Positions 1 to 2,802 of a DNA stretch of 64,000 nt are shown here, one piece after another. Position numbers: made by a program. Origin of the DNA: Escherichia coli. GTDB lineage: Bacteria; Pseudomonadota; Gammaproteobacteria; Enterobacterales; Enterobacteriaceae. The stretch lies in the NCBI RefSeq assembly GCF_029227855.1, contig NZ_CP074356.1; one strand, written 5' to 3'. Numbering within the stretch: position 1 is the stretch's first letter; the number at the start of each line of letters is the position of its first letter.

Positions 1-2802
1 TTTTGCATATGTGCTACGGTTAAATCAGGAAAACGTGCCACTGACATCCACGTTTCTTCTAATTGTGCTGCATTATCCTCAATGAATCGCAGTCTCTTTA
101 TGTAATAAACCTGCTCACCAGTCACTAAATTCAGCTCAGTCGCAATAGGGGGAGAAGCATCCTGCACTTCAAATTTCATAATCTGACTTCCTGCCTCCTT
201 GCCGCTTTTATGCGCAATTTCACTGAAGCTGTTCATGTGATCAATGTGTGCAACAAAATTCTTTTTTTGAATATATGTTCCTGAACCATGCTTTCTATGA
301 ATAATTCCTTCGCCTTCCAGCAAGGATAATGCCTTACGCAGGGTATTACGCGAAACATTATAACGAACAGCGAGTTCAGCTTCTGACGGCAACAAATCAC
401 CAACATGCCATGAATAGCCATTGATCTCGGATTTAAGTAAGCGGGCAATCTTTTGAAAAATCACTTTTGCACCTTTTAAGAGCCATTGAAAACAAGGAGT
501 TGAGTCCTGATTGGTTTATCGTATGGCCGAGTCGTTTAATTATTACCCTGATGTTGAACAACTTTATTGCTGTATTACTGTGATCAATGTACCAGGACGT
601 ATAGCTACTGCGGGATATGATATTTACACAATGTAATCTGTTATATACCAGTAAGGGAAAATATGAAAAAGATATTGTTAGTTTGCGCTGCGGGCATGTC
701 AACCAGTATGCTGGTTAAACGTATGATTGATCATGCTAACGCTATTTCACTTGAAGTTAATATTTCCGCATTGGCGATTGCAGAGGCTAAAGGGAAAATT
801 AAAAATAACGAAGTTGACGTTGTTTTACTTGGCCCGCAAGTTCGCTTTCAGAAACCAGAGATTGAAGCTGTTGCACAGGGGAAAATGCCTGTAGCTGTTA
901 TCGAGATGAAAGACTATGGCACCATGAACGGACAGGCAGTTCTTGAATTTGCGATGAAACTACTGCAAGAGTAAGAATCTAATATTATTAAACTATTACC
1001 TGAACTAACTTTTCACACATCATAAAATGGATATGGCATACATGCTTTATTGGGATGTATAAATATCCAGAACAACAGGTATAAAAAAATGGGATTAATG
1101 ACCTCATTCGAACGTGGAATGGAACGTTTTCTTGTTCCAGTTGCTATCAAGTTAAACTCACAAAAACATGTTGCAGCGGTGAGAGATGGATTCGTTTTTA
1201 CGTTTCCAATTATCATGGCAAGCTCATTAATTATATTAATAAACTTTGCCATATTATCGCCAGACGGCTTTATTGCCGGACTGCTGCATCTGAACAGCGT
1301 TTTTCCCAACCTTGAAAAAGCACAAGCTATTTTTACTCCGGTAATGAATGGCTCTGTAAATATCATGTCAATTATGATTGCTTTCCTGGTCGCCAGAAAT
1401 ATGGCGATTAGCTATGAGCAAGATGATCTTTTATGCGGATTAACGGCAATAGGAGCATTTTTTATTGTTTATACGCCATATCAGATGATAGATGGGCAAG
1501 CATTCCTGACGACCAAATATCTCGGCGCACAGGGGTTGTTTGTTGCTGTTATCGTTGCATTAATCACCAGTGAAATATTTTGTCGCTTAGCTCGAAACCC
1601 AAAAATCACCATAACGATGCCGGCAGCTGTACCTCCTGCGGTATCGCGTTCATTTAAAGTTTTATTGCCAATATTTTTTGTCATGGTGTTCTTTTCCGCA
1701 CTTAATTATTGCCTGACACTGATATCCCCGGCAGGATTAAACGATCTCATTTACACATTAATCCAGACGCCGCTCAAACATATGGGAACGAATATCTTTG
1801 CGGTAATTATCCTGGGGGCTGTGGGTAATTTCCTGTGGGTGCTGGGGATCCACGGACCTAATACCACCTCGGCAATTCGAGAAACTGTTTTTTCTGAGGC
1901 TAATCTGGAGAATCTCTCCTGGGCCGCTCAACACGGCACTACCTGGGGCGCGCCATATCCGATTACCTGGACTTCTATTAATGATGCATTCGCCAACTGC
2001 GGCGGTTCAGGTATGACGTTGGGGTTATTGTTGGCTATTTTTATCGCGTCTAAGCGTGCGGAATACCGTGATCTGGCAAAAATGTCGTTTATCCCCGGTA
2101 TTTTCAATATCAATGAACCGATAATGTTCGGCCTTCCTATTGTACTTAACCCCATCATGATGGTGCCGTTTATTCTGGTTCCCATTGTTAACTGTGCCAT
2201 TGGTTACTTCTTTGTTTCGATGGAAATTATTCCACCGGTTGCTTATGCCGTGCCCTGGACTACGCCCGGACCTTTAATTGCTTTCCTCGGAACCGGGGGA
2301 AACTGGCTGGCGTTACTGGTGGGTTTTTTATGTTTAGGTGTGGCGACAATGATCTATTTACCTTTTGTTATTGCCGCCAACAAGGTCAATAACTTAACAA
2401 CTAACGGATAATCCCATTTACACAGGAAGGAGATGTTGATGTTTGCAGATGAAGAACTTGTTATGGAGTTACTGATCAACGCGGGACAGGCACGTTCTGA
2501 TGCGATGGAAGCCATACGTTGTGCCGGGCAAAAAGACTGGCAGGGCGCAACTCAGCTAATGGCCAGTTCGGAATTAGCCTGTCTTCAGGCACATAAAATT
2601 CAGACCGCGTTAATTAGTCAGGATGAAGGTTGTGGCAAAATAGTAGTTAATTTAATTCTGGTTCATGCACAGGATCATTTGATGAATGCAATATTATGCC
2701 AGGATTTAGCCAGGGAAATTATTTCATTAAGAAAAGAGCTCCATGCCTGATTTTTTCCTCCAGTGCGATAGCTGGAGGAAATTATTACACTCTTAAGGAT
2801 AA

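What the first reader, a model, noticed from the sequence alone, without database searches (positions are those of the whole stretch)
578..653. Candidate CRP site and near-palindromic operator in the GntR/PTS divergent promoter region
TGTGATCAATGTACCA (578..593) resembles a CRP half-conserved site (left half perfect TGTGA, right half weak). CTGTTATATACCAG (640..653), just upstream of the IIB RBS, is nearly self-complementary and contains the GT-N-AC core common to GntR/HutC operators. Together they would give catabolite control plus specific repression of the PTS operon.
Basis: inference. Interest (0 to 1): 0.3.

Follow-up and report, generated by a model that had tools for sequence, protein, structure and literature searches.

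The report
Known CRP-dependent bgc operon promoter
This is the control region of the already described E. coli bgc beta-glucoside operon: the TGTGA motif is a weak but evolutionarily fixed CRP activator site, while the proposed repressor "operator" is a chance-level palindrome next to a regulator (BgcR) that is reported to activate, not repress.

Summary
Both strings exist, slightly off the stated coordinates: TGTGATCAATGTACCA at 579-594 and CTGTTATATACCAG at 638-651. Neither exceeds chance in this sequence alone.

The locus matches the published bgc operon: IIB-IIC-IIA-porin-phospho-beta-glucosidase with a divergent GntR/HutC regulator, bgcR. It lies between eamA and marB and is present in about 46% of complete E. 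coli genomes.

In 34 orthologous control regions from more than 12 genera:
- TGTGAYC is essentially invariant.
- It sits a fixed 127-129 nt from the regulator start in 31 regions.
- A TAnnnT -10 hexamer lies exactly 37 nt downstream in 33 of 34.

This places the CRP centre at -41.5 of a promoter with no -35, the class II architecture. The E. coli site is weak (5.6 bits). The Citrobacter and Salmonella versions (TAACA right half) score 11-16 bits.

The 14-mer is shared only with E. albertii, has no canonical HutC core, and lies at +11 to +24. A citing paper describes BgcR as a positive regulator. So catabolite control is supported and specific repression through the 14-mer is not.

A conserved inverted repeat, GTTCA-N16-TGAAC, upstream of the CRP site is a better candidate BgcR site.

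Already known; low interest.

The parts
1..464 (-). 5' part of bgcR, the GntR/HutC-family regulator. The start codon GTG is at 464 and the gene runs off the window.
   Evidence: RefSeq annotation of an identical genome. Translation. Pfam GntR + UTRA on orthologs. Closest solved relatives are NagR/YvoA, YydK and DasR.
486..503 (-). Conserved block (d) next to the bgcR ribosome-binding site. On the bgcR-sense strand it reads TAAC-N4-TGTTTT-N-AAA. Function unknown.
   Evidence: Conservation in the regulator-sense alignment. RNAalifold finds no consensus structure.
534..543 (.). Conserved block (c). It is GTTCATTTTT in most genera and GTTTAATTAT here. It forms the left arm of the inverted repeat GTTCA-N16-TGAAC, at about -94 to -85.
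   Evidence: Conservation profile. Exact GTTCA-N16-TGAAC occurs in 12 of 30 representatives, against at most 4 for any 5-nt-arm palindrome in shuffles. Identity run with E. albertii.
553..565 (.). Conserved block (b), GTTGAACAACTTT. It forms the right arm of the inverted repeat (TGAAC 555-559), at about -75 to -63, immediately upstream of the CRP site. Candidate BgcR activator site (inferred).
576..597 (.). CRP site, 22-mer TACTGTGATCAATGTACCAGGA. The 16-bp core is 579-594 and the centre is between 586 and 587, which is -41.5.
   Evidence: Exact position. TGTGAYC is near-invariant in 34 orthologs. PWM score is 5.6 bits here and 11-16 bits in the Citrobacter, Salmonella, Enterobacter and Rouxiella orthologs.
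616..621 (+). Predicted -10 hexamer TATGAT of the bgc promoter. There is no -35 match at 593-598.
   Evidence: TAnnnT lies exactly 37 nt after the first T of TGTGA in 33 of 34 orthologs, and in 0-4 of 34 at any other offset. The sigma-70 scan finds no two-hexamer promoter on the + strand.
628..628 (+). Predicted transcription start (+1, plus or minus 1 nt). Inferred from the -10 position, not measured.
   Evidence: Inference. A C/A polymorphism among E. coli alleles sits at 627.
638..651 (.). The 14-mer CTGTTATATACCAG, a near-palindrome at +11 to +24 in the 5' leader.
653..974 (+). Shine-Dalgarno AAGGG (653-657) and bgcE (PTS IIB, 663-974).
1089..5943 (+). Rest of the operon: IIC (1089-2411), IIA (2439-2750), carbohydrate porin (2806-4473) and 6-phospho-beta-glucosidase (4504-5943).
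   Evidence: RefSeq annotation. ORFs.

Best explanation
The 198-bp gap is the regulatory region of the bgc beta-glucoside/cellobiose operon and its divergent regulator gene bgcR.

The bgc promoter has a -10 hexamer (TATGAT, 616-621) but no -35. A CRP site is centred at -41.5 (core 579-594). This is a class II CRP-dependent promoter: cAMP-CRP bound over the -35 position recruits RNA polymerase, which gives catabolite control.

In E. coli the promoter-proximal half of the CRP site is degenerate (TACCA). The site is therefore weak, which fits a 'cryptic' operon that needs a second activator. That activator is BgcR, a HutC-family protein reported to act positively. It most likely binds upstream of CRP in the conserved region from -94 to -63, at the inverted repeat GTTCA-N16-TGAAC with T-tracts between the arms. 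It probably does not bind at the 14-mer.

The 14-mer (638-651) lies in the transcribed leader at +11 to +24. It is most likely an incidental AT-rich near-palindrome, or at most an Escherichia-specific leader element. It is not a repressor operator.

Shown here:
- the sequence architecture;
- its conservation;
- the fixed CRP-to-(-10) spacing.

Taken from literature: BgcR is positive (PMC3585215); expression is CRP-dependent (my recollection of Neelakanta et al. 2009).

Inferred:
- the +1 position;
- the class II mechanism;
- the BgcR site.
For: Locus identity:
- Gene order is IIB-IIC-IIA-porin-6-phospho-beta-glucosidase with a divergent GntR regulator, inserted between eamA and marB.
- It is present in 2492 of 5426 complete E. 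coli genomes and in E. albertii.
- This matches the bgc/BgcR description cited in PMC3585215.

CRP site:
- TGTGAYC is near-invariant in 34 orthologous regions from Escherichia, Salmonella, Citrobacter, Enterobacter, Kluyvera, Raoultella, Cedecea, Buttiauxella, Ewingella, Rouxiella, Yersinia and others. In 31 of them it lies 127-129 nt from the regulator start.
- The right half keeps T..CA.
- PWM scores are 11-16 bits in 10 orthologs. The training median is 11.5 bits.

Promoter:
- TAnnnT is at offset +37 in 33 of 34 regions, against 0-4 of 34 elsewhere. This gives -41.5.
- There is no -35 and no two-hexamer promoter on the + strand.

Documented class II CRP sites with similarly weak halves exist. 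Examples from Table S4 of PMC3105977 are srlA -41.5 TGCGATCAAAATAACA, glgS -40.5 TGTGATCGGGGACAAT and gatY -40.5 TGTGATCGTTATCTCG.

Against the 14-mer as an operator:
- chance-level palindrome;
- no GTnTAnAC core in any ortholog;
- not conserved outside Escherichia, although the helix VSRNTLRKAL is invariant;
- no second copy in the locus.

The upstream inverted repeat is conserved.
Against: - The E. coli CRP site scores only 5.6 bits, the 12th percentile of documented sites, and is not above chance alone.
- The key C at core position 13 (PMC3105977) is absent from the most common ortholog right halves (TGGCA, TAACA) and from E. coli TACCA.
- In Kluyvera and Raoultella the right half has no CRP resemblance (scores -1.7 to 3.6), yet TGTGATC persists. 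Another factor could therefore be what conserves it.
- The +1 is predicted, not measured.
- The primary bgc paper could not be read. CRP dependence rests on my memory of its abstract, and I could not check where its authors placed the CRP and BgcR sites.
- The 14-mer is one of five identity runs between E. coli and E. albertii, so some function in Escherichia is not excluded.
- The two arms of the proposed BgcR repeat vary independently and lie 21 bp apart centre to centre, which is atypical for HutC dimers.
Confidence: 0.72

Rival explanations
1. The 14-mer CTGTTATATACCAG is the operator of the GntR/HutC regulator. The regulator represses the PTS operon by sitting between +11 and +24 until a beta-glucoside phosphate inducer releases it.
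For: - It is a near-palindrome with 6 of 7 pairs.
- It loosely resembles HutC sites such as dre TGGTCTAGACCA, or the BguR and GmuR sites ATGTnTAnACAT.
- It is invariant in six E. coli alleles and 13 of 14 in E. albertii.
- Most HutC regulators are repressors; BguR is one example.
- Other genera carry different small palindromes at about the same place, for example Kluyvera GTCA-N5-TGAC and C. koseri TTAATATATTAA.
Against: - BgcR is described as a positive regulator (PMC3585215).
- A palindrome of this quality occurs in 28% of shuffles.
- The spacing is GT-N5-AC rather than GTnTAnAC.
- It is not conserved beyond Escherichia, despite an invariant recognition helix.
- A 13-nt identity run is roughly what 76% identity yields by chance. 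This is my estimate: 0.24 x 0.76^13 x 185, or about 1.2 runs.
- There is only a single copy in the locus.
Confidence: 0.1
2. The conserved TAACTGTGATC block is not primarily a CRP site. It is the recognition element of BgcR or another factor, and CRP acts elsewhere or indirectly.
For: - Only the left half is conserved.
- In Kluyvera and Raoultella the 16-mer scores -1.7 to 3.6 bits as a CRP site.
- TGTGAT contains the TGT found in the half-sites of two HutC-family operators, ATGTCTA (BguR) and ATGTATA (GmuR).
- The block is the single most conserved element, and BgcR's DNA-binding residues are invariant.
Against: - Ten orthologs have a full CRP site with correct N6 spacing, scoring 11-16 bits.
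- T..CA of the right half is conserved.
- The spacing to the -10 is exactly the class II spacing.
- CRP dependence is reported (recollection of Neelakanta et al. 2009).
- TGTGATC is the extended CRP half-site consensus. The PWM consensus is ATGTGATCTAGATCACAT.
Confidence: 0.1
3. The 14-mer is functional but is not a transcription-factor site. It would be an AU-rich leader element just 5' of the Shine-Dalgarno that influences translation initiation or mRNA stability.
For: - It lies in the predicted 5' UTR, 2 nt upstream of the SD.
- All orthologs have AT-rich sequence there, such as TTTAATATAAC and TTAATATATTAA.
- It is conserved within Escherichia.
Against: - The leader fold is not better than shuffles, with z = -0.23.
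- The conservation is weak evidence.
Confidence: 0.2

Closest known systems
The bgc operon (bgcEFIHA) and bgcR of E. coli i484/B2 strains (Neelakanta, Sankar & Schnetz 2009, Appl Environ Microbiol 75:2284, PMID 19233952)
   Same: The gene content and order are the same: PTS IIB, IIC, IIA, porin and phospho-beta-glucosidase, with a divergent GntR-type regulator. Both are strain-variable in E. coli and present in E. albertii, with homologs in Citrobacter, Enterobacter and Klebsiella-like genera. BgcR is positive per PMC3585215. CRP dependence is as I recall the abstract.
   Different: Nothing is known to differ. I could not open the paper, so I could not compare its mapped promoter, CRP site or bgc* point mutation with my coordinates. 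Sequence identity to strain i484 was not checked.
Class II CRP-dependent promoters, with CRP centred near -41.5. Examples in Table S4 of PMC3105977 are galETKM, mglBAC, malXY, srlA and gapA.
   Same: The CRP centre is 29.5 bp upstream of the first base of the -10 hexamer. There is no -35 hexamer. One consensus half-site is paired with one weak half, as at srlA (TGCGATCAAAATAACA), glgS and gatY.
   Different: The E. coli site is weaker than 88% of the 60 documented sites used. The promoter reportedly also needs a HutC-family co-activator.
bgl operon promoter of E. coli, a cryptic beta-glucoside operon with a weak CRP site
   Same: It is a cryptic beta-glucoside PTS operon whose promoter depends on a sub-optimal CRP site. 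Point mutations that improve the CRP site activate bgl (PMC2646131). A single C-to-A change at 592 would raise the bgc site by 5.3 bits.
   Different: bgl is controlled by the BglG antiterminator and H-NS rather than by a HutC activator. It is a different PTS family. Whether the bgc* mutation lies in the CRP site is not known to me.
HutC-subfamily operators: NagR/DasR dre, BguR AAAAATGTCTAGACAAATTT, GmuR tAAATGTaTAGACAttTa
   Same: The regulator belongs to this subfamily. It has GntR + UTRA domains and its best PDB hits are NagR, YydK and DasR. The 14-mer is a short AT-rich near-palindrome with terminal TGT/ACC-like arms.
   Different: No GTnTAnAC core occurs in any of the 34 orthologous regions. 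BgcR acts positively whereas BguR, for example, is a repressor. The conserved candidate half-sites (kGTTCA) are 16 bp apart rather than abutting.

Membership tests
CRP (cAMP receptor protein) binding site | Match to the 16-bp two-fold symmetric core TGTGA-N6-TCACA, especially G4 and C13 | tested here: inconclusive
   8 of 10 core positions match; G4 is present and C13 is absent. The PWM score is 5.6 bits (12th percentile of 60 documented sites), and 123 window positions score as well or better. Ten orthologs score 11-16 bits at the homologous position.
CRP (cAMP receptor protein) binding site | Position compatible with activation (centre near -41.5, -61.5 and so on, relative to a promoter) | tested here: met
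   A conserved TAnnnT lies 37 nt downstream in 33 of 34 orthologs, giving a centre of -41.5. There is no -35. The +1 is predicted, not measured.
CRP (cAMP receptor protein) binding site | Evolutionary conservation of the site in orthologous control regions | tested here: met
   TGTGAYC is near-invariant, and T..CA of the right half is conserved, in 34 regions from more than 12 genera.
CRP (cAMP receptor protein) binding site | cAMP-CRP binding and CRP-dependent expression | not testable with these tools
   Reported for bgc by Neelakanta et al. 2009, as I recall the abstract. The paper is not held.
GntR/HutC repressor operator | Two-fold symmetric site beyond chance | tested here: not met
   6 of 7 pairs are complementary, but 28% of dinucleotide shuffles of the 198-bp region contain an equal or better 14-mer.
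GntR/HutC repressor operator | HutC core GT-N-TA-N-AC | tested here: not met
   The 14-mer has GT-N5-AC. There is no exact GTnTAnAC in the E. coli region, and only one chance hit among the 34 orthologous regions.
GntR/HutC repressor operator | Conservation wherever the regulator's DNA-reading residues are conserved | tested here: not met
   The recognition helix S38-R39-N40-T41-L42-R43-K44-A45 is invariant or nearly so in 13 orthologs down to 47% identity. The 14-mer is found only in E. coli and E. albertii.
GntR/HutC repressor operator | The cognate regulator represses the target operon | not testable with these tools
bgc operon (bgcR-bgcEFIHA) | Five-gene PTS IIB/IIC/IIA + porin + phospho-beta-glucosidase operon with a divergent GntR-type regulator, strain-variable in E. 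coli | tested here: met
   Annotation and ORFs. Presence in 2492 of 5426 genomes. Description in PMC3585215. Direct sequence comparison with strain i484 was not possible.

The most novel reading that the evidence does not exclude
BgcR is an unusual HutC-family protein that works as an upstream co-activator of a class II CRP promoter. It would bind two kGTTCA half-sites arranged as an inverted repeat 21 bp apart centre to centre (GTTCA-N16-TGAAC, window 534-538 and 555-559, centred near -81.5), separated by T-tracts. This differs from the compact abutting palindromes of NagR, DasR, GmuR and BguR. The degenerate promoter-proximal CRP half would be what makes the operon BgcR-dependent and 'cryptic'. 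A single change such as C592A (TACCA to TAACA, the Citrobacter/Salmonella state) would make it BgcR-independent.
Probability: 0.25. Interest if true: 0.35.

Novelty: already known. Interest (0 to 1): 0.15.

Why it matters
It matters little for discovery. The operon, its CRP dependence and its regulator were described in 2009.

The useful outcome is a correction. The neighbouring GntR-type gene should not be annotated as a repressor with an operator at the IIB leader.

The comparative analysis adds a precise, testable promoter map:
- CRP at -41.5;
- a -10 hexamer at 616-621;
- conserved upstream blocks at 534-565.

The map covers a strain-variable sugar-utilisation island carried by nearly half of sequenced E. 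coli. It also suggests why the operon is nearly silent in E. coli, where the CRP right half is decayed, but may be better expressed in Citrobacter and Salmonella relatives.

Tried and rejected
1. RNA structure explanations.
- The leader 628-700 folds no better than shuffles, z = -0.23.
- The IIB-IIC gap gives z = -0.71.
- The apparent hairpin around the conserved TGTTTT block upstream of bgcR gave no RNAalifold consensus structure in 27 sequences. Rejected.

2. Extra copies of the 14-mer in the locus or window. None lies near the operon; 14 loose matches were found against 6.9 expected, all elsewhere.

3. A canonical HutC core GTnTAnAC anywhere in the 34 orthologous regions. Absent.

4. A GATC-centred palindrome TACTGTGATCAATGTA (I3) as an alternative reading of the TGTGA block. 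The palindrome is not conserved in other genera. Rejected.

5. Blocks (b) and (c) as -35 or -10 hexamers of either promoter, or as a second CRP, CytR, Cra, FNR or OmpR site. Spacings and sequences did not fit. This was inspection only and remains unresolved.

6. Transferring an operator from distant homologs in Vibrio and Bacillaceae (31-39% identity).
- Their recognition helix differs: VSRVTVRQAL against VSRNTLRKAL.
- Their upstream regions show ATACA/TGTAT-type repeats, not the GTTCA repeat.
- Not transferable.

7. Reading the primary bgc paper by DOI, PMC id and PubMed id. It is not held. Source names for the proteins carry no 'Bgc' label.

8. Within-E. coli polymorphism. Both motifs are invariant in six alleles, but with about 12 variable sites in 198 bp this is not informative.
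Full report
**What is at the coordinates**

The window is E. coli chromosome. Bases 1-464 (minus strand) are the 5' part of a GntR/HutC-family regulator gene whose GTG start is at 464. Bases 663-5943 (plus strand) encode PTS IIB, IIC, IIA, a carbohydrate porin and a 6-phospho-beta-glucosidase. They are followed by marB-marA-marR.

TGTGATCAATGTACCA is at 579-594. CTGTTATATACCAG is at 638-651. The second ends 2 nt before the AAGGG Shine-Dalgarno of IIB. The whole island lies between eamA and marB. It is present at full length in 2492 of 5426 complete E. coli genomes. The 198-bp intergenic region alone is present in 2504 genomes.

**Chance tests on this sequence alone**

Neither motif stands out.
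- TGTGA-N6-TCACA with up to 2 mismatches occurs 28 times in the window, against 28.6 expected.
- I built a symmetric PWM from 60 documented CRP sites listed in Table S4 of Shimada et al. 2011 (PMC3105977). The bgc site scores 5.6 bits, below 88% of the training sites.
- 123 window positions score as well or better, and 48% of shuffled copies of the intergenic region contain an equal or better site.
- That paper stresses G4 and C13 of the core as the key positions. Here G4 is present and C13 is replaced by A.
- The same scan recovers the documented lsr CRP site at 25370-25385, the reverse complement of TGTGATGGCAACCACA in Table S4, as a positive control.
- The 14-mer is complementary at 6 of 7 pairs, but 28% of dinucleotide shuffles of the 198-bp region contain such a 14-mer.

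**Comparative evidence**

The regulator has clear orthologs down to about 47% identity, and I collected their divergent control regions. The genera include:
- E. albertii, Salmonella, Citrobacter and Enterobacter;
- Superficieibacter, Kluyvera, Raoultella and Cedecea;
- Buttiauxella, Ewingella, Rouxiella and Yersinia.

In 34 regions a TGTGAYC motif is present, and in 31 of them it lies 127-129 nt from the regulator start. It is the most conserved non-coding element. 20 of 34 regions read AACTGTGATC, and all keep GTGA.

The right half retains only T..CA. In the Citrobacter, Salmonella, Enterobacter asburiae, UBA5654, Superficieibacter and Rouxiella lineages it reads TAACA or TAGCA. There the 18-mer scores 11-16 bits, at or above the median of documented sites. 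In E. coli (5.6), E. albertii (3.2), Kluyvera and Raoultella (-1.7 to 3.6) the right half has decayed.

**The promoter**

A TAnnnT hexamer lies exactly 37 nt after the first T of TGTGA in 33 of 34 regions. At every other offset from 20 to 59 the count is 0-4. In E. coli the hexamer is TATGAT at 616-621.

With +1 seven bases after the hexamer (about 628), the CRP core centre (586/587) is at -41.5. The position where a -35 would be (593-598, CAGGAC) has no resemblance to TTGACA. The two-hexamer sigma-70 scan finds nothing on the plus strand.

This is the textbook class II CRP architecture. Documented class II sites with one poor half are common; examples are srlA -41.5 TGCGATCAAAATAACA, glgS, gatY and malXY. 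The +1 is inferred, not measured.

**Identity with a known system**

The gene content and the divergent GntR regulator match the bgc operon of Neelakanta, Sankar and Schnetz (2009). The primary paper is not held here.

Shafeeq et al. [quoted passage not shown] From my own memory of the abstract (not verified here):
- expression is CRP-dependent;
- spontaneous bgc* mutants carry a single-nucleotide promoter change that makes expression BgcR-independent;
- the locus is enriched in B2 strains and present in E. albertii.

**The 14-mer**

It is invariant in six sampled E. coli alleles and matches at 13 of 14 positions in E. albertii. But E. coli and E. albertii are 75.8% identical across the gap, and runs of about 13 are roughly what that identity yields by chance (my estimate).

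Outside Escherichia the homologous position carries unrelated AT-rich sequences:
- TTTAATATAAC in Citrobacter and TTAATATATTAA in C. koseri;
- TTCAAT-ATC-ATTGAA in a metagenomic relative;
- GTCA-N5-TGAC in Kluyvera, further upstream.

Yet the regulator's recognition helix (VSRNTLRKAL) and wing (HGSGT) are invariant.

No exact HutC core GTnTAnAC occurs in the E. coli region, and only one chance hit occurs among the 34 regions. The 14-mer has one base too many between GT and AC, compared with the BguR site ATGTCTAGACAT or the GmuR site ATGTaTAGACAt. No second copy lies in the locus, and the leader does not fold better than shuffles. At +11 to +24 the 14-mer could only act negatively, which does not fit an activator. 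I therefore regard operator function as unsupported, with about 0.1 probability.

**Where BgcR more likely binds**

Two further blocks upstream of the CRP site are conserved in nearly all orthologs.
- Block (c) is GTTCATTTTT. In E. coli it is GTTTAATTAT at 534-543.
- Block (b) is TTGAAC.ACTT. In E. coli it is GTTGAACAACTTT at 553-565.

Together they form the inverted repeat GTTCA-N16-TGAAC with T-tracts between the arms. The exact repeat is in 12 of 30 representatives, while no 5-nt-arm palindrome exceeded 4 in shuffles. The half-site kGTTCA resembles the half-sites of the two HutC-family operators quoted above (ATGTCTA, ATGTATA). The repeat centres near -81.5, upstream of and adjacent to CRP, where a co-activator would be expected.

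This assignment is inference only. The arms vary independently, and their 21-bp separation is atypical for HutC dimers. A third conserved block near the bgcR ribosome-binding site (486-503) remains unexplained; a hairpin explanation was tested and rejected.

**Synthesis**

The region is a known, CRP-dependent, activator-requiring promoter.

The E. coli CRP site is intrinsically weak. A single C-to-A change at 592 would raise it by 5.3 bits to the Citrobacter/Salmonella state. This is a plausible but unverified route to the reported promoter-up mutants.

Novelty: already known. Interest: low.

Noticed in passing
window 534-565: A conserved inverted repeat, GTTCA-N16-TGAAC (GTTTA...TGAAC in E. 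coli), with T-tracts between the arms lies upstream of the CRP site. It is conserved across more than 12 genera. It is a candidate BgcR activator site, but no known motif was matched.
   Followed up: partly
window 486-503: A conserved block next to the bgcR ribosome-binding site reads TAAC-N4-TGTTTT-N-AAA on the bgcR strand. The flanks looked complementary in some genera, but RNAalifold found no consensus structure. Its function is unknown.
   Followed up: partly
window 6064-6081: The best CRP-PWM hit in the whole window, ATGTGATTTAAATCAAAC (17.3 bits), lies inside the marB coding region, just downstream of the bgc operon end.
   Followed up: no
window 17621-17638: A near-perfect CRP palindrome, ATGTGATCGTAATCACGT (16.3 bits), lies in the uxaB-yneE intergenic gap.
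   Followed up: no
window 47331-47348 and 47545-47562: Two strong CRP-like sites (15.2 and 14.0 bits) lie in the ydeO-ydeN intergenic region.
   Followed up: no
window 25370-25385: TGTGGTTGCCATCACA in the lsrA-lsrR gap is the documented lsr CRP site, the reverse complement of TGTGATGGCAACCACA in Table S4 of PMC3105977. It served as a positive control.
   Followed up: yes
window 465-662: This window's allele of the bgc control region is rare. Only 15 of 2506 records are at least 99% identical, and most listed records are 96-98.5% identical. In the six alleles aligned, the SNPs avoid the CRP core, the -10 and the 14-mer; one (C/A at 627) abuts the predicted +1. Five matches are on plasmids.
   Followed up: partly
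window 1028-1072: An imperfect inverted repeat (GGATAT..ATACAT / ATGTAT..ATATCC) lies in the 114-bp IIB-IIC gap. The RNA fold is not better than shuffles, z = -0.71.
   Followed up: partly
L010, L018, L025, L026 (Kluyvera cryocrescens, Buttiauxella izardii, Buttiauxella massiliensis, Cedecea sulfonylureivorans): In these genomes the bgcR ortholog has lost the conserved promoter module. The sequence diverges upstream of or right after block (b), which suggests rearrangement or insertion. Several other genera start the operon with IIC or the glucosidase instead of IIB yet keep the module.
   Followed up: no
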